Assembly: GCA_964016885.1 (NCBI GenBank)
Contig: CAXHJY010000688.1
Location: 1-64,000, forward strand
DNA length: 64,000 nt
Direction: 5' to 3'
Source: Eledone cirrhosa
Lineage: Eukaryota
The notes under the pieces are model-generated. The model did not search any database and was not told the origin of the DNA. It saw only the letters and a list, made by a program, of their open reading frames with translations. Positions 15,857 to 58,860 of this stretch are shown one piece after another. Position 1 is the first letter of the stretch. Every line of letters starts with the position of its first letter. Position numbers and translations under genes: made by a program.

Positions 15857-15905
15857 TGATTGGTCCACGTGATAATAATGGTGGTGCGTGGGGGCGGGCG
15901 GGAGG
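15857..15905 (-). promoter_or_regulatory. Candidate internal Pol II promoter cluster (CCAAT box, CACGTG E-box, GC boxes) upstream of the RTE ORF
   Basis: gattgg (CCAATC on minus) ~15858, cacgtg ~15866, ggggcgggcgggagg 15891-15905, 50-100 bp upstream of the ATG at 15806. Confidence 0.4.
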
Positions 15906-15922
15906 AGTGTTGAGTTGTTAGC

Positions 15923-16667: not shown

Positions 16668-17103
16668 TGGCGGTACTCAGTAATAGAGAAGACCCGCCTT
16701 ACCTAAATACAAAGTAAAACCTACAACAGTCAGTAGGCATCTCTAACAAAAGAAAAAAAAATATATATACCCCGTCCCATCAACCCCACCCCATCCACAC
16801 CGCCTTTTTCAATGTAAAGTTATGTTGGTGCCACAACATCCAGGCCGAAACAAATGAGATCGTGTAGGTGTCACGACAAAAAAACACACAGTTCACGCTG
16901 TAATGTGGCGTGTAGGCAACGCGGTAAAAACCTCCCAGTCCCACACTGTAAATGTGGTTGGTGTTAGGAAGGGCATCCAGCTGTAGAAAACCCACCAGAT
17001 AGTCCTATGCGAGCAAGACAATTACTCTTGCTTCAAGTGGGAAAACCCCCGTGCAAACCCATGCAAGCGTGGAACACGGACGTTAAACGTTGATGATGAT
17101 GAT
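16668..17103 (+). mobile_element. RTE family 1 3' fragment, copy C
   Basis: Starts at tggcggtactcagta (WRYSV, last ORF codons), full 3' UTR, (GAT)n tail. Confidence 0.9.
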
Positions 17104-17137
17104 ATATACATACACATATATATATATACATATATAT

Positions 17138-17188
<51 letters not shown>

Positions 17189-17211
17189 TATATATATACA
17201 TATATATACAT

Positions 17212-18927
17212 ATCATCATCATCATCATCATCATCAACGTTTAACGTCCGTGTTCCACGCTTGCATGGGTTTGGACGGGGGTAGTCCCACTTGAGGCAAG
17301 AGTGATTGTCTTGCTCGCATAGGACTGTCTGGTAGGTTTTCTACAGTTGGATGCCCTTCCTAACACCAACCACATTTACAGTGTGGGTCTGGGAGGTTTT
17401 TACTGTGTTGCCTACACGGCCACATTACAGCGTGGACTGTGTGTTTTTTTGTCGTGACACCTACACGATCTCATTTGTTTCGGCCTGGATGGTGTGGCAC
17501 CGACACAACTTTACATAGAACGGGGTGGCGTGGAAGGGGTGGGGGTGGTGGGACGGGGGGGGGGGGGTATTTTGTTAGAGATGCCTACTGGTTGTAGTAG
17601 GTTTTACTATGTATTTAAGTAAGGCGGGTCTTCTCTGTTACTGAGTACCGCCAAAGGTCTCGGTCCAGTGACATTGTCTTGGAGAGGTGTAAGTGTGTGA
17701 GGTCAGAGTTTATCAGCTCGTCCCAGGTTTTTCTAGGTCTACCTATTCCGTGGCTACCGTCTATCTTTATTGCCCTGCACTTTGTTATACAGCTATCGAC
17801 TTTCATGCGCATCACGTGTCCATACCAACGTAGCCTTCTCTCGAGTAAACAACATCTGATCCCTCTTATTTCTAATTTTTTCCTTAGTTCGTTTATGCTT
17901 TGCCGTTCACATATATTACTGTTACACATCCAGCGGAGCATGCAAGCTTCGTTCCTCTCTAGTCTGCGTATATCCTCTGCACACAATGCCCAGGTCTCAC
18001 TGCCATGCAACATTGCTGTTCGTATGCAGGCATCGTACAACCTGCCTTTCATTTTTAGGGAGAACCCTTTAGCGGCTAATAGTGGTATAAGCTCCCTGAA
18101 CTTTTTCCAACCAGTTCTGACTCTAGCTACTGTACTTTCAGAGCACCCTCCCCCACTGCTGATTTTGTCACCCAGGTAACGGAAGCTGTCCACTATTTCT
18201 ATAGAACCCTCTGCGCAATTGAAAGAGCTAGTATTTTGTGGGCACTTGCTGCTACTTATTGCACCAGAGCACCGGCCACATGTAAAATCTATGTTCTTAG
18301 TTAGCTTACCTGTGATCCCACTACATCTTTTATGCACCCATACTTTGCATTTAGGACATAAAATGGAGTTTCTACCTACGCCTTTCCTACACACCGAGCA
18401 CGACAATTTCCCTGAAGGGACCGCCGCCTTATTTTCTTTCCTACAAACTAGAACTTTAGTCTTAGCCAGGTTAATTTTAAGGCCTTTTGATTCTAGGCCG
18501 TGCTTCCATGTTTGGAATTTCTTCTCTAGCTCGGCCATTGATTCCGCTATGAGTGTCAGGTCGTCTGCGTATAGGAGTTCCCATGGGCAGCCGGTCTTGA
18601 ACTCCTCCGTTGTAGCCTGAAGGGCAATAATAAATAGTAGGGGGCTGAGAACAGAGCCCTGATGTACACCAACTTTTACGCTAAACTCTTCACTATATTC
18701 GTTGTTAATTCTAACCTTGCCGACTGTTTCTTTATACATGGCTTGTATAGCTCTCACAAGCCATTCGTCAACGCCTAGTTTTCTAAGAGCCCACCAGATA
18801 ATGGAGCGGGGGACTCTGTCGAAGGCTTTCTCCAAGTCGACAAAAGCTAAGTAGAGGGGTTTACCTTTAGCTAGGTACTTCTCCTGTAGTTGTCGTACAA
18901 TGAAAAGAGCGTCTGTGGTACTTTTGC
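17212..18927 (-). mobile_element. RTE family 1 5'-truncated copy D (RT C-half ORF 17615-~18925)
   Basis: 406-aa ORF nearly identical to copies A/B; tail-to-tail with copy C across ~110 bp of (TA)n. Confidence 0.95.
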
Positions 18928-19410
18928 ATGTCGCTTGAGTCCTACTGATTTACATTCTCTAACACATGCTTGGCAAGCATGATGAGTAGCAGCCTGGTAG
19001 TCAACATACATATATACATACATATATATACATACATACACATACATATATATACATACATACACATACATACATATATATACACATACATACATATATA
19101 TACACATACATACATATATATATACGCATACATACATATATATACGCATACATACATATATATACGCATACATACATATATATACACATACATACATATA
19201 CACATACATACATATATATACACATACATATATATACACATACATACATATATATACATACATACATATATATACATACATACATATATATACATACATA
19301 CATACATATATATACATACATACATATATATACATACATACATATATACACATACATACATATACATACATACATACATATACATACACATATATACATA
19401 CATACATATA

Positions 19411-20020
19411 TGGTGGCTGCCAACTCGTTTTCGAGTACGGCCACTACTTTATATCCATGTAGGAGAACCCCTACCGATGCGCTGAACGAATGTGACTTTT
19501 TAGTCCAGCCAGCGACTTGAAAACTCTGGTACAAACACTACACCTGTGACAATTATTGACACATAGTGTTGGGCCCATGGTACCATGTGACGACAAGTGC
19601 AGAGAGATCTCCAGATATAAAGCAATGCCTGTGCCGTGAAGCTTTTATAGTGAGCAAAGGCACTGCACAAAGCCAGTCCCACTCTCTTAACCAAGATGAT
19701 ATTTACCAAAAAGAAGAACAAGTCAACATCATTGGATACCATCAGGGTTGCAGGTGTTATATCAGAGTTTTCCTTCTCCTAGAATTCTGCCTTGACAAAG
19801 GCTAAGGGATCATCTCTCAGGATGATTTTGGATGGCTATTGACTCTTAAGAGCTCCTTTGCCCTTTGACAGGTTTTGTTTTTAGTCCTGCAGGATGTCCA
19901 TAGTCACCCTCTTCACCAAGAAACCTTGGTGGGGTTGCCAGTTTAGTCGCCAACGACCCGATCATGCGACAGGTTGTACTGGGATACATGTTACACCAGT
20001 AGCACCTACTGGAGACCTGA
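19411..20020 (-). mobile_element. Non-autonomous ~610-bp retroelement, copy 2 (apparently full length)
   Basis: Flanked both sides by (CATA)n; matches copies at 4325 and 57907. Confidence 0.85.
19938..20017 (-). ncRNA. Candidate degenerate HDV-like ribozyme at the element 5' end
   Basis: Minus strand: ggtctc(P1)...ccagt(P2) aca-acctgt-cgc(P3/L3, degenerate) atgatc(P1') gg gtcg-ttgg-cga(P4) ctaa(J4/2) actgg(P2'). Confidence 0.45.
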
Positions 20021-20047
20021 TATATACATACATACATATATATACAT

Positions 20048-20078
<31 letters not shown>

Positions 20079-20169
20079 TACAAACATACATACATACATA
20101 CATATATATATATATACATACATATATATACACATATATACACATATATATATACACATGTATAGACAT

Positions 20170-23100
20170 ATATAAGGCTACAGGCCAAGACTGGCTATTA
20201 TTATTATTGTAGCTGTATTCATTTCTATCGGTTATTTTGATAGCCATGACTGGCTGCCTACCTCACAATTTCCCTCCCACCACCATAGCCTATTCGACCA
20301 ATCAAACCTCAGCATGCCATTTCTTCTACTACTACTACTACTACTACCTAACTCTCTCCTCCCCCGTCCCAGCCCAACACACCCTGCCATTATTACCACC
20401 ACCACTGTTCTTCTCGCCCTGAAATTTTTCTACAGTTATGTATGGATGAGCTAAGAATAAATTGGAGCAACACTGAATTAATAGATGAAATGAATATGAA
20501 TCCGCGAGCTACCAAGCACCCATGTGAAGCCTCAATCCAGAGAGGAAGCACACACACACCCCTGCAAAAATCGACCCTTCCCTACGAGTGTTGACAAATG
20601 CCCAAAACTCCGAGTTGGTACCATCAATGTAAGCACGATGAAAGGAAGAGCAGGAGAAATCGTAGAAATGCTAGAGCGAAAGGAAATTGATGTATGCTGT
20701 GTGCAAGAGACTAGATGGAGAGGAGGGTCTGCTAGAGTCCTTGTAGGAAAAAGTCAGTGCTACAAATTTTTCTGGGTGGGAAATGACGATGGGATGGGTG
20801 GTGTAGGTATACTACTAGCTGACAAGTGGGTAGATAAAGTAATCTCAGTGTACAGGGTAAATGCAAGAATCATTAAACTCAGACTAGTCCTGAATAAAAC
20901 AATTACCACAATAATATCAGCTTACGCACCCCAATCTGGGTTGCCAGACGAACTTAAGGATAGATTTTATGAGTCCCTAATGCACACTACTGCTCTAACA
21001 AACGACAATGACTTCCTAATCATCGCAGGAGATTTTAACGGACACGTAAGTAAACACTGTGACGGCTTCAATAGAGGCCACGGGGTTGGCACAAGAAATG
21101 AAGAAGGATTCAGACTTCTAGAATTCTGCGACGTCAATGACATGTCGATATGTAACACAAACTTCAAAAAACCTGACAACCACCTGATCACCTATAGATC
21201 AGGGGAGCATTCTAGTCAGATTTTATCCTCATCAGATGGACGGTCGTAAACACAAAAGCCTACCCTAGTGAGGAATGTACCTCCCAACAGAGCTTAGTTG
21301 TCAGCGACCTCACGGTCAGAACTAGACGAACCTGGAAACAGAGGCCAACCTGGAGAAGAAAGATCTGGAAGCTGAAAGACCACTCAGCCAGTAACAGATT
21401 TAAAGATATTTTACTCAACGCCTACGACAGTAAAGAAGAACAGATAGAGACATTCAATGTAGAAGAGAACTGGGAGTTCCTAAAAAATAACTTACTAGAG
21501 GCGTCGGATGAGGTCTGTGGCTGGAGTAAGACCACAAGCAGGAGAGTGACTTGGTGGTGGAACAATAAGGTAGATGAGGCAGTTAAGGCCAAGAGACAGG
21601 CATGGAAAGAATGGAAGAACGGGGGGAGCAGGGTACATTACATAGAAACGAAGAGGGAAGCTAGGCGACAAGTATACTTAGCTTGGAGGGAAGCAGAGGA
21701 TAGAAAATTCAAGCATGTTTTGCAACGTGAGGACCAGAAACAGGAGGTGTTCAAGATTGCGAAGCAGTGTGTCAGAGAGAATTGTGATGTCATTGGAGCG
21801 AAGTGTATCCGGAATGATAAAGGTGAGCTTGCCCTCACAAGTGCTGAGAAGAAAGATGCATGGAAGAGCCATTATGATAGATTACTAAATGAGGGACCAG
21901 CAGTACAAGTCAGCAGCAGCGTAGTAAGTAAGGCAATCAAAGATATGAAGATGGGGAAGGCAACCGGTCCATCGGATATACCTGCCGAGATTGTGAAGGC
22001 ATCTGGGTCTGTAGGTCACACTATAACCACACGTATTGTTAACCAGGTAATACTAGAAGGCGTCATACCAAAAGATTGGTGCAGTAGCATCATTGTCAAC
22101 TGCTACAAAGGTAAAGGTGATGCACTAGATAGAGGAAACTATAGAGGTATAAAGCTGATGGACCAGGTCATAAAAGTAACAGAAAGAGTTATAGCACAGT
22201 TGATTAGGGACCGGGTGAAAATAGATGAGATGCAATTTGGGTTTGTACCAGGAAGAGGCACCACTGATGCCTTCTTCCTTGTGAGGCAGTTATAGGAAAA
22301 GTACCTAGCTAAAAGTAAGCCACTCTACCTGGCATTCGTCGATCTCGAGAAAGCCTTTGACAGAGTTCCACGTGCTGTAATCTGGTGGGCTCTTAGAAAA
22401 CTAGGAGTAGATGAATGGCTTGTGAAAGCTGTACAAGCCATGTATAGGGGAGCAGTCAGCAAAGTTAGGATTAGCAATGAGTATAGCGAGGAATTTAGCG
22501 TACAGGTTGGTGTCCACCAGGGCTCTGTTCTTAGCCCTCTCCTGTTCATCATAGTCCTGCAGGCAATAACGGAGGAGTTTAAGACCGGATGCCCATGGGA
22601 ACTCCTGTATGCTGATGACCTTTTACTTATAGCTGAATCTATGGTAGAACTAGAGAAGAAATTCCAAACTTGGAAGCAGGGACTAGAAAGAAAGGGTCTC
22701 AAAGTCAACATGACAAAGACTAAGGTCCTTGTAAGTAGACGAGAAAACAGAACCCAGATCCCCTCAGGGAAATGGCCTTGCTCAGTATGTAGGAAAGGTG
22801 TACGTAGGAACTTCATTCTCTGCCCCAAATGCAAACAATGGGTACACAAGAGATGTAGCGGGATCTCAGGAAGCTTAATTAAGAATGTAGGCTTCACATG
22901 CAGCAAACAGCCACAGGAAAAAAGTACCACCAATCTCTAGGAGGGCTCTGTAGAAACAGTAGACAGCTTCTGCTACCTAGGTGACAAAATTAGCAGCAGA
23001 GGTGGGTGTTCAGAAAGTACAATAACTAGGGTAAGAACGGGATGGAAGAAGTTCAGGGAACTACTGCCACTGCTAGCTGCAAAAGGCTTCTCCCTCAAAA

Positions 23101-23784
23101 TGAAAGGCAGACTGTATGATGCGTGTATCCGAACAGCAATGTTACATGGTAGTGAGACCTGGGCGCTGAAGGTGGAAGACTTACGTAGATTAGAAAGAAA
23201 CAAAGCCTGCATGCTCCAATGGATGTGTAATAGTAATATACTCGAACAACAAAGCATAAATGAATTGAGAGAGAGACTGAGCATAAGAGGAATCAAATGC
23301 TGTGTGCAGGAGAGGCGGTTGCGTTGGTATGGACATGTGATGCGTATGAAGGATGACAGCTGCATAAAAAGGTGCAGAGCATTAGAAGTCAAATGAAACC
23401 GCGGAGTGGGGAGACCCAAGAAGACCTGGGATGAGGTGGTAAAAGCCGACCTTACCCATTTACACCTCTCAAAGGCGATGACATACGACCGTGATCTCTG
23501 GCGTCACGCAGTAATACAGAGTACCCGATCTCCCATGGGTACATGCTGAAGCATATAGACAGTGCCCCCACACGCTCCCACTGCAAGGTGGTCGTGGAGG
23601 TGCCACGGCAAAAAAAAAGCACCCAGCCCACACTGTAAAGTGGACGTATAGGCACCACGGAAAAAGCACCCAGCACTCACAGTAAATGAGGTTGGTGTAG
23701 AAATCAAGCCAGAATCAGTTCCCGTCCCACCCTTGCAAGCAGGGAAAAGCGGATGTAAAATGATTATGATGATGATGATGATGA
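20170..23784 (+). mobile_element. RTE family 2, full-length but decayed (pseudo-ORF ~20524-23530)
   Basis: EN (GTINVSTM, CVQETRW, SAYAPQ, GDFNGH) and RT (YADD ~22608) fragments with frameshifts, stops and deletions; (GAT)n tail. Confidence 0.9.
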
Positions 23785-23795
23785 TATACACACAT

Positions 23796-23963
23796 ATCAT
23801 CATCATTTCATTTTACGTCCACTTTTCCCTGCTTGCAAGGGTGGGACGGGAACTGATTCTGGCTTGATTTCTACATCTGGATGCCCTTACTAACACCAAC
23901 CTCATTTACAGTGAGTGCTGGGTGCTTTTTTTCTGTGGCGCCTGCATGTCCACTTTTCAGTGG
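23796..23963 (-). mobile_element. Inverted 3' fragment of RTE family 2, tail-to-tail with the preceding copy
   Basis: 23812-23873 is the reverse complement of 23697-23760. Confidence 0.85.
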
Positions 23964-24179: not shown

Positions 24180-24422
24180 TGCACACATACATATATATAT
24201 ATATATATAGAAATTACATGAATCAAAGTACAGTTTAAATCATTTATTTGGTTACAATTGTTTCCTCCAAACCGAGGTTTGGATTCTTCGCAGTAACTAT
24301 TTAGTGATATTTTACATACTTGACCTCCTTTTCAACACAAGAGACATATAAAAACATATGTATATATTGACCCACAGTGGGTTGACATCCATCATAATAA
24401 TATAGCAGTATGAATTACCAGT

Positions 24423-26696
24423 ATGCTGATCAAAGACCAACTCCCTATGTCAACCAAGAACATACCAGTACCACCCAAAAATACATATGAAAAATTATTG
24501 ATCGACAGTGTAAACTCCTTTATCAATAGAATGAGATGGAGGACATTCCATTATGATAAAAACAAATCTAGCAAGGTTAATAATACTAACAAATTTGACT
24601 CCTTCGGCTTTAAAACCTTTAGAAGCCCCCCTCATAACACACTACTAAACTCCTTTGAAAATGACCTAATAAAACTAGTTAAGAATATTAAATACAAAAA
24701 GCACCGTAATAAAAACAACACCTTCTTAAACAAACTTAGCACCTCTATTAATGATTTCGAAACTAGTAATAAAATTATTGTACATGCGGACAAAACTAAT
24801 AACATATACAGCCTAGATTATAATACTTATAGAAAGTTTATATATAATGAACTACATAAAAGCTACAAGAAAACCACTATGAAAAACTTAGAAGATATTA
24901 ATATGGAAGGCTATAATATAGTGTCCAAACTAGGACTCCAGAGACATACACAACCATATACCCCAAACCCCCCTAGATTCTCTCTGAAGGACCACAAGGA
25001 GGACTTCATTAGCAACCTCTCGATTAGACTCATCTGCCCTTCCAAGTCTGACATTGGCATTATCAGTAAAAAAATTTTAGATAAAATCATCCCACAGATT
25101 ACACACAAGATATACCTTAAACAATGGGGAAATACGGGTGAAGTGATTAAATGGTTCAAAGATATCAAGGATAACAAGGATAAAAAATTTATTCAATTTG
25201 ATATCAATCCTTACTACACCTCTATTTCCCCTATCCTATTAAATAAGGCACTTATCATGGCCATGGACAATAGTGACCTGACTAGACCCCAGATTGATGT
25301 CATACTTGTGGCCCGTAAAACACTAATCACCTTTGAAGACCAATTCAATATAGAAAGAACTAGAAAACTATTGCACAAGACATTCAAAAACTATAACCTT
25401 AGTATTACCATGGACAAAAACACTAAAAACGTCAACTTCCTGGACGCCACCCTCTACCTAGACTCAATGATATATGCACCTTTCCACAAACCTAATGAAA
25501 AACTCATTTACATAGATACCAAGTCTAACCACCCTAGATCTATATTAAACTATCTCTAAGGGAGTATCTAATAGAATCTCTAATCTATCCTATGACGTAA
25601 ACATATTTAACAAAAACTCGCAATATTATAATCAGGCATTAGCTAGATCAGGCCATAATATAGAGATCGAGTTCCTACCTACAAAAACACATAGCTACAT
25701 TATTTCGCACATGTCCATGAGAAAATTTAGTAATAGGAATAGCAACCACACACACACTAATAGGGATGATACCAACAAAAGTAACCCACACCACAGAAAT
25801 TACGATAGTACCATAAAAGGAAACAACTCACCAGACATAAAAAACAAAAATAGAAGAAGAAATAATACATTTTTCAACCCTCCTTTCAATCTAAACGTCT
25901 CTACCAACCTACCTAGGGCTTTCTTCTCACTACTAGATAAAAACTTCCCATCCGGCCACAAGTACCATAGCCTTTTAAACAAAAACACTATTAAAATCTC
26001 CTACTCTACTACGCCTAACATAGCATACCACATAGCTAGTAGCAATAAAAGAAAAATTAATTCTTACTTCCAACAAACTAAATCACAACAGACGATAAAC
26101 CTTCAAAATAACATTATAGTAACTAACCCTAATATCAATAGAAATAATAGTAATAGCACTAGTGTAAACAATAACGCTGGGAACGACAACCCACATAACC
26201 ATAACCCTATAGCTACCATCCAGACTTCTACACAACATAATAACCGGCAGACTAACACCCAGAATAATTGTAACTGTAGATCAAATAGAACCTGCCCTTT
26301 AGATAAAAATGCTTAATCAAGGATATCATATACTCATGCACAGTCACAACTATCAACTCTTCTGAAACCTATATAGGCTCTACTTCTAACTGCTTCAAAA
26401 CTAGATACAATTCGCACCTCCACTCTTTCAAAAAACACAGTCTAGCCAACTCCACTTCACTATCTAGCTACATACACTATCTAAAAACTAAAAATAAACC
26501 ATATACACTTAAATGGGAAGTGATAGGTAATGCGACATCGTACAAACCACCTAATAAATTTTGTAACCTCTGTCTACTAGAGACCCATACTATCATCTTC
26601 TCTAACCATAACCTCCTTAATAAAAAATCAGAAGTGTTCGCGTCTTGCCAACACCGCTTCCGATACTCTTTCCAAAACTTTAAACCCAATATATAA
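24423..26696 (+). pseudogene. PLE RT + GIY-YIG endonuclease; frameshifted, with the RT catalytic core deleted
   Basis: KNIPVP, RMRWR, ADKTNN, LKDHK, QFDI..YYTSI, NFLD, SNHP, FNPPF, CNCR..CPL, IIYSC..TYIG, CNLC; no MG/YxDD segment between ARKTL and NIERTRK. Confidence 0.85.
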
Positions 26697-32879: not shown

Positions 32880-33376
32880 ATTATGGGAGGATCCTTTAGT
32901 TATGTCAAGGACATGACACCTTCCCTAGTACTGCTGAACTACACAACAAAAGTACCCAGTACATATTGTAAAGTGGTTGGTGTTGGGAAGGAGCATCCAG
33001 CCATAGAAATCTTGCCAAACAAGGAGTTACGAGGATCCTTCAGTTTGTGTTAAGGACATGATACCCTCACTAGTGCTGCTGAGCTACACAATAAAAGAAC
33101 CCAACACACACTGTAAAGTAGTTGGTGTTAGGAAGGAGCATCCAGCTGTAGAAAGCTGGCCAAACAAGGGGTTACGAGGATCCTTCAGTTTGTGTCAAAA
33201 GACAACTTCTCCTCTGCACTCGACATAACCATACATAAGTGGGATACAAAATTCCTTGGCCTGTCTGGGATGTCTGTGGCCCCACTTCAGTACTGACTTG
33301 GTCTATGTAGACCCATCCAAACCTTGCCAGCAGGGAAAGTGGATGTTACATAATAATGATGATAATGACAATGATG
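32880..33376 (+). mobile_element. RTE-tail-type element with an internal ~146-bp tandem repeat (2+ copies)
   Basis: gaggatcctt.agtt..gtcaa recurs at ~32887, 33031 and 33176; (GAT)n-like tail. Confidence 0.7.
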
Positions 33377-39634: not shown

Positions 39635-40095
39635 ATACAGCCGTACCTGTATAGAGACAGCCGTACTTGTATAGAGACAGCCGTACTTGTATAGAGACAG
39701 CCGTACTTGTATAGAGACAGCCGTACTTGTATAGAGACAGCCGTACTTGTATAGAGACAGCCGTACCTGTATAGAGACAGCCGTACTTGTATAGAGACAG
39801 CCGTACCTGTATAGAGACAGCCGTACTTGTATAGAGACAGCCGTACCTGTATAGAGACAGCCGTACCTGTATAGAGACAGCCGTACTTGTATAGAGACAG
39901 CCGTACTTGTATAGAGACAGCCGTACTTGTATAGAGACAGCCGTACCTGTATAGAGACAGCCGTACCTGTATAGAGACAGCCGTACCTGTATAGAGACAG
40001 CCATACCTGTATAGAGACAGCCGTACCTGTATAGAGACAGCCGTACCTGTATAGAGACAGCCGTACCTGTATAGAGACAGCCGTACCTGTATAGA
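39635..40095. repeat. 20-bp minisatellite (ccgtacYtgtatagagacag) x ~23
   Basis: Near-perfect units differing mainly at one C/T position. Confidence 0.95.
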
Positions 40096-44950: not shown

Positions 44951-46072
44951 AAAGTGAGAGTAGGAATGGAGTTTAGTGAGGAATTCCAGATACAAGTTGG
45001 AGTACATAAGGGTTCGGTCCTCAGCATGCTCTTGTTCATTATAGTCCTCCAAGCCATAACAGAGGAGTTTAAGACCATGGGAACTTCTCTATGCTGACGA
45101 TCTGATACTTATAGCAGAATCGGTAGAGGAGCTAGAGAATAAATTCTGGCTATGGAAACAGCAGTTGGAATCAAGAGGACTGAGCGTGAACCTAGCTAAG
45201 ATTAAAGTGTTTATAAGTAGAAAAGAGGACAAAACTCTGATTCCATCAGGGAAATGGTCATGTTCGATATGTAGGAAAGGAGTTGGCATAAATTCTATAA
45301 AATGTACACAATGCAGATCTTGGGTACAAAAGGGATGTAGTGGGATAGCAGGCAAACTAACAGGTAGGGAAAACTACATATGCAGTAGATGTACAGGGAA
45401 ATTTGACAGTAGAAGTCGCAGTGATAGACACATTTTTCAAATGCAGGTAGGATCTATAGAGGTGGTTGATAGCTTCCGATACCTAGGTGATCAGATTAAC
45501 AACGGAGGAGGGTGCTCCGAGGCCATAGTATCTAGAATAAGGACAGGTTGGAAGAAGTTTAGGGAGCTGCTTCCTCTGTTGACAAAGAAGGGTATCTCCC
45601 TGCGAATGAAAGGCCGGTTATATGATGCTGATGTGCGATGCTGCATAGTAGTGAGATATGGGCAACAACTCCAGAGGATATGCGACAGCTGGAGAGAAAT
45701 GAGGCAAGCATGCTCCGTTGGATGTGCAATGTCAATGTGCATGAATGGCCAAGCATAGATGAGTTGAGAGAGAAGCTGTGTATATGAGGGATAAGTTGTA
45801 GTGTGCTGGAGAGAAGGCTGAGATGGTATGGACATGTGATGCGCATGGAGGATGACCGCTGGGTAAAGAAATGCCAAGAAATCCCAGTAGAAGGAAGATG
45901 CCGTAGAGGAAGACCACGAAAAACATGGGTGGAGGTGGTGAGAGCTGATCTCAGATTGCTTAATCTCACGGAGGAGATGACGAATGACCGTGACAAGTGG
46001 AGAGATGCTGTGTTGAATAGGACCTGTCCCACCCATGCAAGCAGGGAAAAGCAGACGTAAAATGATGATGAT
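44951..46072 (+). mobile_element. RTE family 3, 5'-truncated and decayed
   Basis: YADD ~45090, PHD-like [28 protein letters not shown], (GAT)n tail. Confidence 0.9.
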
Positions 46073-50602: not shown

Positions 50603-50845
50603 CATGGACTGGGTGCCTTTTTTGTCATGTCACCAGCACAATCACCTTACAGTATGGACTGGGTGCCTTTTTTGTCATGTCACCAGCACAATCACCTTAC
50701 AGTATGGACTGGGTGCTTTTTGTCATGTCACCAGCACAATCACCTTACAGTATGGACTGGGTGCTTTTTGTCATGTCACCAGCACAATCACCTTACAGTA
50801 TGGACTGGGTGCTTTTTATCATGTCCCCAGCTCAACCACCTTACA
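50603..50845. repeat. ~49-bp tandem repeat x5 derived from an RTE 3' UTR subrepeat
   Basis: atggactgggtgc(c)tttttgtcatgtcaccagcacaatcaccttacagt repeated. Confidence 0.9.
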
Positions 50846-52092
50846 GCCGAATGTAGCAAATAAACTATTTATTGAATCAATATAAAAGAATTAACAAAAT
50901 TCTCATTTTTCGATAATCGTGAATAGTGATATTTTTTCTCCAAACCAATGACAAGCAGATGTTTTGATGAAAAAAGCCTTATTCCAGTGAAACATGTCAA
51001 CAATTAGTTTCTTACCTGCTTCATAAGGTCTATAAGTACATTGTGCCATTTAACAATATAACCCCCATGTCAATAATATTTAGAAAATATGTATAGCCAA
51101 AATTATGTCAATATAACCATCGTCATAATATTACAAATAAAAGAGAAAAAAGAAAAAGAAAAGGAAAGAGGAAAAAAAAAACACACACACAACTAGGACC
51201 ACATGCAACAAAAAGCAGGCGAAAGGGGTGGACAAACAAAGCGCTACCCGAACAAAAGATAACGAATTCCATTGACTCTTTAGAAAATGAGAACTCACTG
51301 CCAAACCTCAAAAGCTCAATCACAAATGTTTTTAGGTTGGGCTATCTCTGCATATCTTTCTTTTATTTGTAAGGTTGAAAATATAAAAATAGATGCTTAG
51401 ACCTTTATTTTGTTTTAGCTATAACTATAAAAACCATGCTGTAGCACTGCATAAGGTTAATCTATAAACAAAACTAATTTTTCATTTTTTTTTTTTTTTT
51501 TGTTATTGAATTGATACATATTTACTGGTGGATGGAGTACACAAGGCGAACCCTTCTATAATTAAAAGTATTCCAACCATGACTAACTCTTTCTATATCT
51601 AGGAAGATATTATCCACTATAACCTATATTTAAGAGTATAAAGAAGAGAAAAGTTGGCTGTTATTTCCAGTAGGTCAAGCAACCATATAAACGCTTCCTC
51701 ATTGATTCATTCTAGGAGTATTGAAAGGACACGTGTGTTGTAGTTTGGTAGCAAAAAGGTAATCCTAATAACTTCCTGAAACAGCTGTTTCTATGATATC
51801 CAGCCCAAAACTGTGGCTACGCTTGACATCCAGTACCAGGCTCCAAAACTATGGTTCCACTGTGAGACGGGTTCAGCATGGCCAACTGGCCTGTCCCCAC
51901 TCATAATGGCGCTATCCAGTTCCACAGTGTAAATGTGATGGGTGTTAGGAAGAAAGGGCATCCAGCTGTAAAATACTAGCCAACTCTGGCCAAACTTGCC
52001 TCCCAGCCAGGACAACCCGTCTGACCCATACAAGCATGGAAAAATGGATACTAAACAGAGATGATGATGATGATTTTATATATATATATATA

Positions 52093-53111
52093 TTTCGTTT
52101 CTGAATTTGTTTAGCAAGATTCTTTATCTGAAAACGTGTGTTGAAACCGATATTGTTATACTTTGGGAGGGTCATGTTGCCAATAAGAAACACACGCACC
52201 AGTTGCTTTCACTTCAATTTATTATAAATTAAATTTATAAATTTAGGAATTTATAAATTTCCGCTTGGTTGGGTGGTTCCACAACCAGACGATTGTTCAT
52301 ATATTGTCAGTTCTTTCGTCACACATTCTGTGACCTCTTCAGTGACTGGGGATTCTTTTCTTTGTTTTTGTGCCTCTCCTTTGTTCTGTTCTACGCCATC
52401 TTGTTTTTGTGTGTGTTGTGTGCTTAGTTTGCACATGTGTTACATCCGGGTGTCTGTGTGTGTTTATATTTGTTTATTTATTTGTTTATTTACATGTTAC
52501 TGGTTGGTTGTTTGTTCTATGTGCGTGTGTGTTTTCATTTTGTCCTTAATTTTAAGTTGTGATGTTGCTGTTCCACTCATGTTTTCTATTTAATTTTGGT
52601 TGTAATTCATTTATGTTTATTGCCTCTGTGATTTGTCTAAACATTGCGTCACAGAGGCAATAAACATAAATGAACTCCAACCAAAATTAAATAGAAAGCA
52701 TGAATGGAATAGCAACATCACAACTTACAATTAAGGACAAAATGAAAACACACACGCACATAGAACAAACAACCAACCAGTAACATGTAAATAAACAAAT
52801 AAATAAACAAATATAAACACACACAGACACCCGGATGTAACACATGTGCAAACTAAACACAAAATCAAGATGGCGTAGAACAGAACAAAGGAGAGGCACA
52901 AAAACAAAGAAAAGAATCCCCAGTCACTGAAGAGGTCACAGAATGTGTGACGAAAGAACTGACAATATATGAACAATCGTCTGGTTGTGGAACCACCCAG
53001 CCAACTGGAAATTTATAAATTCCTAAATTTATAAATTTAATTTATAATAAATTGAAGTGAAAGCAACTGGTGCATGTGTTTCTTATTGGCAACATGACCC
53101 TCCCAAAGTAT

Positions 53112-57528: not shown

Positions 57529-58860
57529 AATTGTTATATTTGGGGAGGGTCGTGTTATAATATTGCCAGAAAAATATTGTAAAACACACTCAGTTTGGTT
57601 TGGTTTGGGTTTCGCTCCAGTACAGGAATACAATGGAAAGAAACAGAAACATCACTGATGATGTGACAGTTATGTGATGAAAGAACTCCGAGAAACTATA
57701 TTAATATTTATAAATTTAACTGTTGGTCAATCAATGATAAATATTGATTACCAGCTGAATTAATTATATAAATATATATTAAAAAAATATATATATATAT
57801 AAAAATATATATAAAAAAATATATATATAAAGGGCAGTGCCCCAACATGGCCTCAGCCAGATGGCTGGAACAGGTAAAAGAGTATATATAGTTATACATA
57901 CATACATGGTGGCTGCCAACTCGTTTTCGAGTACGGCCACTACTTTATATACATGTAGGAGAACCCCTACCGATGCGCTGAACGAGTGTGACTTTTTAGT
58001 CCAGCCAGCGACTTGAAAACTCTGGTACAAACACTACACTTGTGACAATTATTGACACATAGTGCTTTGCCTTTGGTACCATGTGACGACAAGTGCAGAG
58101 AGATCTCCAGATATAAAGCAATGCCTGTGCCGTGAAGCTTTTATAGTGAGCAAAGGCACTGCACAAAGCCAGTCCCACTCTCTTAACCAAGATGATATTT
58201 ACCAAAAAGAAGAACAAGTCAACATCACTGGATACCATCAGGGTTGCAGGTTTTATATCAGAGTTTTCTTTCTCCTAGAATTCTGCTCTGACAAAGGCTA
58301 AGGGGTCATCTCTCCCAGTGATTTTGGATGGCCATTGACTCTTAAGAGCTCCTTTGACAGGTTTTGTTTTTGGTCCTGCAGGATGTCCAAAGTCACCCTC
58401 CTCACCAAGAAACCTTGGTGGGGTTGCCAGTTTAGTCGCCAACGACCCGACCATGAGACAGGTTGTACTGGGATACATGTAACCAGTTGCACTAACTTGT
58501 GACCTGACATACATACATACATACATACGTACATATATATATATATATAAATAAAAACACAGCCAACTGTATACAGTAAACTAAATGTGTGCACTCTGAA
58601 CAGTTGATTGCAGCTGCATAACTGCAATTTGCCAGATTCATTGAATGAGCTAGACGCTGGCCGAGGGATGCTGAATTTATACCAGCAATCTTCGTTACTT
58701 TTGTTATATATATATATACTGTAGCGAAAACCAACCGAAACCAAACAGTGAGTGTGTTTTACTATATTTTTCTGGCAATATTATAACAATATGACCCTCC
58801 CCAAATATAACAATATCAGTTTCAACTCACAATTTCATATGAAAAACCTTGCAAAACAAA
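57529..58860. mobile_element. PLE-type relic with inverted termini (57529-57622 / 58717-58813), containing nested insertions
   Basis: Same terminal family as 3097 and 52093; hammerhead-like tca-CTGATGA...GAAAGAACTC at 57652-57690. Confidence 0.7.
57907..58507 (-). mobile_element. Non-autonomous ~600-bp retroelement, copy 3; candidate HDV-like ribozyme at 58427-58504
   Basis: Matches copies 1 and 2; flanked by catacat and (CATA)n. Confidence 0.85.

What the first reader, a model, noticed from the sequence alone, without database searches (positions are those of the whole stretch)
19411..20020. 600-bp (CATA)n-associated non-autonomous retroelement starting with a candidate HDV-like ribozyme
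Seen: three copies (4325, 19411, 57907), all minus strand and in CATA-type repeats, with no tRNA A/B boxes and a 3' hairpin (gtggccgtactcg-aaaa-cgagttggcagccac) before the TATG tail. The first ~80 nt of copies 2 and 3 follow HDV order: P1 ggtc.. at the very 5' end, a J1/2 hairpin, P2 ccagt, decayed P3/L3 (acaacctgtcgc, compare canonical gcgtcctcgtcgc), P1' atgatc/atggtc, GG, P4 gtcg-ttgg-cgac, CTAA, P2' actgg. Established: HDV-like ribozymes define the 5' ends of R2 and RTE elements, and R2 gives rise to ribozyme-headed short internally deleted elements. Inference: a promoter-less, ribozyme-processed SINE equivalent parasitising an RTE-type LINE.
Basis: partly seen in the sequence, partly recalled or inferred. 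Interest (0 to 1): 0.7.

Follow-up and report, generated by a model that had tools for sequence, protein, structure and literature searches.

The report
Flavivirus-type RNA knot heading a retrotransposon
This 609-base jumping element, with over 10,000 copies in its genome, does not start with the proposed self-cutting ribozyme; its first 57 bases instead match the layout of the RNA knot that dengue and Zika viruses use to block RNA-degrading enzymes, which likely sets and protects the start of the element's RNA (untested).

Summary
The element is real: a 609-bp bipartite non-autonomous RTE retroelement (RTE 5' UTR joined to a zinc-finger ORF end and 3' hairpin), with at least 10,502 exact head matches and a fixed 5' start. 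The HDV reading fails. Two of three P3 pairs never form, the middle P2 pair is broken in 16 of 23 family members, and no HDV-type Rfam family hits. The same 57 nt fit a flavivirus subclass 1a exoribonuclease-resistant RNA (xrRNA): three-way junction, 5' G-C pseudoknot, U-A-U triple positions, single C between P2 and P3, a 4-6 bp L3 pseudoknot, then a P4 hairpin. P2 changes in sequence and length across sister families yet stays paired. In RTE elements from other samples, similarity ends where the pseudoknot partner ends. The inferred RNA start lies where Xrn1 halts on viral xrRNAs. Best reading: host 5'-3' exonucleases trim read-through transcripts down to this knot, doing the job HDV ribozymes do in other RTEs. 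Limits: Rfam scores are far below the cut-off, one junction pair is U-A instead of C-G, the core shows no two-sided covariation, and there are no RNA or bench data.

The parts
19411..20020 (-). Copy 2 of the bipartite non-autonomous RTE element (family A, 609-nt consensus)
19963..20024 (-). xrRNA-like head of copy 2 (positions -3 to 56). This copy is decayed: position 0 is A instead of G, one P2 mismatch, 2-nt insertion in L3
20015..20019 (-). P1 5' strand (pairs with 19970-19974)
20003..20014 (-). P2 hairpin; sequence and length vary between families while pairing is kept
20002..20002 (-). Single C between P2 and P3 (subclass 1a discriminator position)
   Evidence: invariant column in alignment A2
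19977..20001 (-). P3 stem and loop L3 (L3 holds the pseudoknot strand)
19963..19966 (-). S4, predicted PK2 partner of L3, 3 nt after P1
19937..19962 (-).
19620..19936 (-). Rest of the RTE 5' UTR-derived part, 68-73% identical to the 5' UTRs of RTE LINEs L056 and L122
19471..19600 (-). Remnant of the LINE ORF end: C2H2 zinc finger (PF00096, 25.8 bits, cut-off 25.2) and stop codon
19410..19444 (-). 3' hairpin and terminal CAT, 85% identical over 34 nt to the 3' end of the young intact RTE LINE (L122 family)
57907..58511 (-). Copy 3, full length, head with four substitutions
4325..4880 (-). Copy 1, 5'-truncated at position 53 (lacks the three-way junction)
19004..19408 (.). (TATG)n/(TA)n repeat on the 3' side of copy 2 (target-type sequence)
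20021..20172 (.). (TATG)n/(TA)n repeat on the 5' side of copy 2

Best explanation
This is a non-autonomous RTE retroelement whose first 57 nt are predicted to fold like a flavivirus subclass 1a xrRNA, which likely stalls host 5'-3' exoribonucleases and so sets and protects the 5' end of the element's RNA. Shown: bipartite build, copy number, fixed start, target-site duplications, and compatibility of the fold across families. Inferred steps: (1) copies are transcribed passively inside host or tandem read-through transcripts; (2) after decapping, upstream cleavage or debranching, Xrn1/Xrn2 degrades the upstream part and halts 2-3 nt before the 5' G-C pseudoknot, leaving an RNA that starts with a few flank-derived bases (usually UAUG); (3) an RTE ORF protein, most likely that of the young intact 1,182-aa LINE family, binds the shared 3' hairpin and primes reverse transcription at AT sites in TA/TATG repeats; (4) full-length cDNA restores the head. 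The fold would replace the HDV ribozyme that other RTEs use.
For: Rfam RF01415 (Flavivirus_SLIV) aligns over model 1-75 to the heads of family A (23.4 bits, E 0.054), B (19.0, E 0.22), E (27.7, E 0.0035, top hit) and L233 (15.8, E 1). The 3 genome-wide RF01415 matches reported (64 of 216,717 candidates scored) are all such heads. The 56-nt head folds unconstrained into the three-way junction. The xrRNA structure pairs in 92.7% of cells on 23 family members, against 75.1% for the HDV structure. P2 has five stem versions of 4-5 bp with loops of 4-9 nt, all paired, including both-side changes at 3 of 4 pairs. PK2 is 4 bp in A and C, extends to 5 in B and 6 in L161, L229 and L233 (G-U counted), and to 6 in the E consensus (read by eye). 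The base after the PK1 C is A or U, as in the viral set. A pairing descriptor hits 4 of 6 family consensuses at position 0; it hits random sequence 49 times in 114 Mb. An exact 32-nt core occurs in 6 metagenome contigs; in L229/L233 similarity stops right after S4 and the downstream RTE endonuclease is only 41% identical to that of L122. In run X9 two short contigs match only positions 17-56/57, and in X4 one contig carries a much longer P2 that pairs by eye. 23 of 30 head-selected copies and 12 of 30 tail-selected copies start at the same base and none extends further. In 8 of 15 unambiguous junctions 4-8 extra nt, mostly ending in ATG, lie between the duplication and position 1; Xrn1 stops two positions upstream of PK1 (PMC13161572, passages).
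Against: No RNA or bench data. All Rfam scores are far below the 54.5-bit gathering score; the hit is not among the 150 rows shown for the whole window, is absent when L229, L232 and L234 are scanned whole, has genome-wide E of 6.6-9, and the same search rings in 7 of 14 control genomes. The first P3 pair is U-A, whereas it is C-G in all 11 viral sequences seen and the junction is described as exclusively C-G. P1, P3 and PK2 show no family-level two-sided change; the RNAalifold covariation term is 0.05 and 0 of 12 pairs have both sides changed. On alignment A1 the covariation measures do not beat shuffles (38-368 of 500). Folding z-scores are unremarkable (-0.06 to -2.1), and with 90 nt of context other folds win in most representatives. 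The descriptor was written after seeing the element; it misses the D consensus (2 copies), the E consensus (skewed by a tandem array) and both window copies. Unpaired L3 bases are also conserved, which a fold alone does not require. The exact-match metagenome search can only find conserved cores. The young intact LINE lacks the head and has variable 5' ends. A LINE with family A's own two ends was not found.
Confidence: 0.58

Rival explanations
1. The head is an internal promoter (Inr-like TCAG at the start, as in Jockey/I-type LINEs or trypanosome Pr77); the fixed 5' end is a transcription start, and the hairpins serve protein binding or stability.
For: Fixed start; start word matches the Drosophila Inr consensus at 5 of 6 (consensus recalled); unpaired bases and two further motifs near positions 150-195 are conserved across families and in L229/L232; the 1-195 module is portable onto other bodies (L090, family E).
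Against: Family B changes the Inr +1 A to G while keeping P1 as G-U; P2 and P4 vary by paired changes, which DNA promoters do not need; similarity in distant elements ends at S4; 0-8 variable extra bases precede the start. Promoter and xrRNA are not mutually exclusive.
Confidence: 0.2
2. The three-way junction is real but is not exonuclease-resistant: it is a binding site for the ORF protein, a translation element, or a self-cleaving ribozyme of an undescribed class.
For: U-A instead of C-G at the junction; weak thermodynamic support; full-length LINEs (L056 family, L233) carry it upstream of an ORF and would need cap-independent translation.
Against: Every subclass 1a landmark sits at the right spacing; no hammerhead, twister, pistol or other ribozyme family hits; variable extra 5' bases fit a nuclease stop better than a precise scissile bond.
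Confidence: 0.12
3. One reading: an HDV-like ribozyme (active, or a relic in the master copy) cleaves the element from read-through RNA.
For: RTEs and R2 SIDEs use HDV-like ribozymes (PMC5786205 and PMC6765202 passages; PMC3414825 abstract). GG, a hairpin and CTAA occur in the right order; the proposed P1 pairs in 95.5% of cells. Positions 57-82 could be the remnant of an older ribozyme.
Against: P3 pairs in 15.9% of cells and 2 of its 3 pairs in 0 of 23; the middle P2 pair is broken in 16 of 23. No HDV-type Rfam family at E up to 10. Copies start upstream of the proposed cleavage site.
Confidence: 0.04
4. The xrRNA resemblance is chance; the head is ordinary RTE 5' UTR conserved by descent or module swapping.
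For: Marginal Rfam E-values and a post hoc descriptor; core identity could reflect recent horizontal transfer.
Against: Random rate about 4e-7 per base for the descriptor; the match begins exactly at the element's 5' end; paired variation in P2; conservation boundary equals the fold boundary in independent samples.
Confidence: 0.06

Closest known systems
Subclass 1a xrRNA of mosquito-borne flaviviruses (DENV, ZIKV, MVEV, WNV; Rfam RF01415)
   Same: Order and spacing of 5' G-U, 5-bp P1, variable P2, single C, P3/L3, C-(A/U)-A, P1', 2-3-nt linker, PK2, P4; start and end words nearly those of DENV2 xrRNA1; element start at the known halt position.
   Different: First P3 pair U-A not C-G; sits at the 5' end of a host retrotransposon, not in a viral 3' UTR; scores below the Rfam cut-off; resistance untested.
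Bipartite non-autonomous RTE LINEs (RTESINE1/2, WALLSI3, RTE-N2_Lch, Bov-A; PMC5786205, parts 1-3 of 5 read)
   Same: 5' part plus 3' end of an RTE LINE, no tRNA head, microsatellite-associated ends.
   Different: Head is xrRNA-like rather than a predicted HDV ribozyme, and is shared by several bodies and tails.
R2 SIDEs and R2/R1 hybrid SIDEs (PMC3414825, abstract)
   Same: Portable structured head that frees a non-autonomous element from a co-transcript, joined to a LINE 3' end.
   Different: There the head self-cleaves; here it would rely on host exonucleases.
HDV-like ribozymes of RTE, R2 and L1Tc
   Same: Position at the 5' end; proposed role in 5' end formation and exonuclease protection (PMC12222951, passages).
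   Different: No P3/L3, broken P2, short wobble-rich P1.
RTE-2_OV of Octopus vulgaris (PMC9115989, passages; 4 of 8 held supplements searched)
   Same: RTE clade, endonuclease-RT-C2H2 ORF like the candidate partner LINEs.
   Different: Its sequence was not found in the files searched, so identity with L122 or L056 is untested; 0 occurrences of 'ribozyme' in its main text.

Membership tests
HDV-like ribozyme | P3 (3 bp) closing L3 | tested here: not met
   15.9% of cells paired; 2 of 3 pairs never form
HDV-like ribozyme | P2 pseudoknot of 5-7 bp | tested here: not met
   5 bp in family A only; middle pair broken in 16 of 23
HDV-like ribozyme | P1 of 6-7 bp starting at the element's first base | tested here: not met
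   5 bp with 2-3 G-U; starts 4 nt inside the element
HDV-like ribozyme | GG, P4 and catalytic C in J4/2 | tested here: inconclusive
   letters present in A-D, GG lost in E, whole part absent in L229/L233
HDV-like ribozyme | Self-cleavage | not testable with these tools
   bench assay
xrRNA subclass 1a | Three-way junction P1-P2-P3 | tested here: met
xrRNA subclass 1a | Single C between P2 and P3 | tested here: met
   invariant in 23 of 23; feature from PMC8374639 and PMC7527734
xrRNA subclass 1a | PK1: 5' G pairing with the C after P3 | tested here: met
   bases present, 20 of 23 paired; pairing itself is inferred
xrRNA subclass 1a | U-A-U base triple | tested here: inconclusive
   the A-U pair is invariant and the 5' U is at least 90% conserved; the triple cannot be shown from sequence
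xrRNA subclass 1a | PK2 of 2-7 bp between L3 and a strand just after P1 | tested here: inconclusive
   4-6 bp possible in every family, extended in different ways, but no two-sided change
xrRNA subclass 1a | C-G pairs only at the junction | tested here: not met
   first P3 pair is U-A in all families
xrRNA subclass 1a | Rfam RF01415 gathering score 54.5 bits | tested here: not met
   15.8-29.6 bits
xrRNA subclass 1a | [quoted passage not shown] | not testable with these tools
   bench assay or structure
Bipartite non-autonomous RTE | 5' part from an RTE 5' UTR | tested here: met
   positions 16-399 72% identical to LINE L056
Bipartite non-autonomous RTE | 3' part from an RTE 3' end | tested here: met
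   zinc finger 42-46% identical to ORF ends of L056 and L122; 3' hairpin 85%
Bipartite non-autonomous RTE | Signs of target-primed reverse transcription (5' truncation, duplications) | tested here: met
   18 of 30 truncated; duplication-like match in 55 of 86, 15 unambiguous
Bipartite non-autonomous RTE | Autonomous parent sharing both ends | tested here: inconclusive
   L056 family shares the head, L122 family the tail; no single parent found
tRNA-derived SINE | tRNA head with A and B boxes | tested here: not met

The most novel reading that the evidence does not exclude
A group of RTE retrotransposons and their non-autonomous derivatives, in this genome and in other organisms' samples, carry a working flavivirus-type xrRNA as a portable 5' module and use host RNA decay to cut out their own RNA. 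This would be a cellular subclass 1a xrRNA and a third way, beside internal promoters and ribozymes, to define a retrotransposon's 5' end, and it would imply exchange of the fold between flaviviruses and animal retroelements.
Probability: 0.5. Interest if true: 0.9.

Novelty: new variant of a known kind. Interest (0 to 1): 0.74.

Why it matters
A 2021 review states that xrRNAs had been characterized only in viruses and asks whether they exist in eukaryotic genomes (PMC8374639, parts 1-3 of 5 read). Searches (listings only) showed no paper placing an xrRNA in a native retrotransposon; subscription papers, Repbase and Dfam were not searchable. If the fold resists Xrn1, it answers that question with a multi-thousand-copy example, adds a decay-dependent route for 5' end formation in promoter-less non-LTR elements, and bears on where the flavivirus fold came from. 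One gel assay decides it.

Tried and rejected
HDV mapping: rejected; my HDV descriptor had no positive control. tRNA head: none; a 5S-like word near position 57 was noticed, but no 5S hit in Rfam. Protein search with the zinc-finger remnant found nothing. Search for a parent LINE by an upstream zinc-finger codon pattern gave 2 hits whose matched text is the family-A sequence with one change (loci not read further); 0 of 30 tail-selected loci continue into an ORF. A strict viral-core pattern gave 12 genome hits, none a head in the three loci read. The only viral-contig hit (L235) lies in coding-like sequence and does not pair; taken as chance. No RNA holder listed; X19 is only guessed to be RNA and contigs cannot show starts; raw-read run X21 laid 0 reads. 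Searches used mis-indexed structure strings and are disregarded; replace them. The head model R2 could be run only on the window; model R1 was built and not used. Not held: Ruminski 2011 and Albertin 2015, so the HDV-in-RTE statements are second-hand and identity with the octopus SINE named in the latter (recalled) is untested. The O. vulgaris repeat paper (part 1 of 3 and its one supplement) holds no sequences to compare.

Full report
Observation. A 40-nt head word has 10,502 exact matches and a 38-nt tail word 20,460, with 0 for the reversed controls. The best-scoring copies are 97% identical to copy 2, so the family is young. The consensus of 39 aligned copies is 609 nt.

Anatomy. Positions 16-399 are 72% identical to the 5' UTR of a decayed full-length RTE LINE (L056), and 191-397 are 69% identical to that of a young intact RTE family (L122; 1,182-aa ORF with endonuclease, RT and C2H2 fingers). 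From about 425 on, the element is a LINE 3' end: a C2H2 finger with its stop (PF00096 above cut-off) and a hairpin 85% identical over 34 nt to the L122 tail. This is the bipartite non-autonomous RTE type described in PMC5786205 (parts 1-3 of 5 read). 18 of 30 tail-selected copies are 5'-truncated at scattered points and 12 of 30 start at position 1; 23 of 30 head-selected copies start there and none extends further. Duplication-like matches beginning at the terminal AT were seen in 55 of 86 copies, 15 unambiguous; in those the extra bases before position 1 were none (5), G (2), TATG (3) or 5-8 nt (5). No single parent LINE with both of family A's ends was found.

HDV test. The consensus does not restore P3/L3. 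No HDV-type Rfam family appears at E up to 10 on any head. The HDV reading is rejected; positions 57-82 could still be a relic.

What the head matches instead. A narrow Rfam scan aligned the head to RF01415, a flavivirus 3' UTR xrRNA family, over the whole model; the same family hit heads B, E and L233, best for E (27.7 bits, E 0.0035). These scores are far below the cut-off (54.5) and vanish in larger searches; genome-wide the three reported matches have E 6.6-9 but all three are heads. Compared with 11 viral xrRNAs (PMC8571300, supplementary Table S1) and the features listed in PMC8374639, PMC8571300, PMC7527734 and PMC13161572 (passages, the first in three of five parts), the head has the 5' G-U, a 5-bp P1, P2, the single C, P3 with the A-U pair of the triple, C-(A/U)-A, a 2-3-nt linker, a 4-bp L3 pseudoknot and a following hairpin. 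It differs in one junction pair (U-A for C-G). The 56-nt head folds unconstrained into this junction, though z-scores are unremarkable and longer contexts often prefer other folds. A pairing descriptor, written after the fact, hits the A, B, C and C2 consensuses at position 0, misses D and E (2 copies; consensus skewed by a tandem array) and both decayed window copies, and hits random sequence 49 times in 114 Mb.

Comparative evidence. The genome holds several families with this head on different bodies: B (non-autonomous, L122-type body and tail), C (old full-length LINE and derivatives), D, a B-head/A-body chimera, an old family E with another RTE body and a GGATT tail, and one copy of head A fused to an unrelated LINE. 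Across them P2 changes in sequence and length but stays paired, P1 changes only to G-U, and PK2 extends to 5-6 bp in different ways. P1, P3 and PK2 show no family-level two-sided change, and on alignment A1 the covariation measures do not beat shuffles; on A2 three of five do, which relatedness alone can produce. An exact 32-nt core was found in 6 metagenome contigs. Four of them carry one RTE element whose similarity ends right after S4 (a fifth ends at the contig edge); its endonuclease is 41% identical to that of L122. L232 is another RTE 5' UTR with a further P2 version. Contigs of two other runs match only positions 17-56/57 or show a much longer P2 (pairing read by eye). The boundary of conservation thus equals the boundary of the fold, with the caveat that exact-match searches select for conserved cores.

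Mechanism. Shown: build, copy number, fixed start, duplications, fold compatibility. Inferred: passive transcription within host or tandem transcripts (tandem copies are common); exonuclease trimming to the knot, whose known halt point two positions before PK1 matches the extra TATG; reverse transcription by an RTE protein through the shared 3' hairpin. In line with this, the young LINE lacks the head and has no fixed 5' end, though that also shows the head is not needed for RTE activity. An internal promoter is the main rival and could coexist. Whether the fold was captured from a viral RNA by template jumping (as R2 captures small RNAs, PMC3414825 abstract), donated to viruses, or convergent cannot be told.

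Novelty. The element class is known. An xrRNA in a native retrotransposon was not seen in the listings. An unchecked note of this scan on another genome (e1-8666864) reaches the same reading; I had noted it before that look-up, and it is not independent evidence. Verdict: real element, HDV not supported, xrRNA-like head likely (fold about 0.8, function about 0.58), interest 0.74.

Noticed in passing
window 18918-18991 (minus): 77 bp 92% identical to the zinc-finger region of the young L122 LINE, joined directly to the truncated 5' end of a different RTE-type LINE copy (17615-18949); looks like a template-switch chimera.
   Followed up: partly
window 5115-7772 (+), 12576-15917 (-), 17615-18949 (-), 20500-23396 (+), 45060-45758 (+): Several near-intact or truncated copies of another RTE-type LINE with a cysteine-rich insertion inside the RT region.
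   Followed up: no
window 24414-26696 (+): Three consecutive ORF pieces that read like a Penelope-like element (RT followed by a GIY-YIG-like end; label from recall).
   Followed up: no
window 17022-17305, 23718-23853, 52540-52742: Long inverted repeats; the first two seem to be tail-to-tail LINE 3' ends around a microsatellite; they cause spurious miRNA hits.
   Followed up: no
window 39637-40095, 50604-50846, 32887-33198: Minisatellites of 20, 48 and 145 bp.
   Followed up: no
L090:7716-7929 (minus): Head A (positions 1-196) fused to the 5' end of an unrelated, decayed LINE ending in (GAT)n.
   Followed up: partly
L122-L135, L142-L146: Young intact RTE family with an unusually long low-complexity 5' region, a poly-T tract where sister families carry the head, variable 5' ends, and in L130/L131 a locally inverted 5' piece.
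   Followed up: partly
L203-L209, L166; G000:C1 near 229.157 Mb, C26 near 12.828 Mb: Tandem arrays of the family-E head (periods about 95-110 bp), reminiscent of tandem xrRNAs and of satellites born from retroelement heads.
   Followed up: no
L177, L181, L197: Chimeric subfamily: family-B head with a changed P4 loop on a family-A body.
   Followed up: partly
element positions about 150-195: Two short motifs conserved in all families and in L229/L232 beyond the fold; they mark the end of the portable module; function unexplained.
   Followed up: no
L150-L154, L158: A satellite of about 40-bp units; in L158 it runs into RTE 5' UTR sequence.
   Followed up: no
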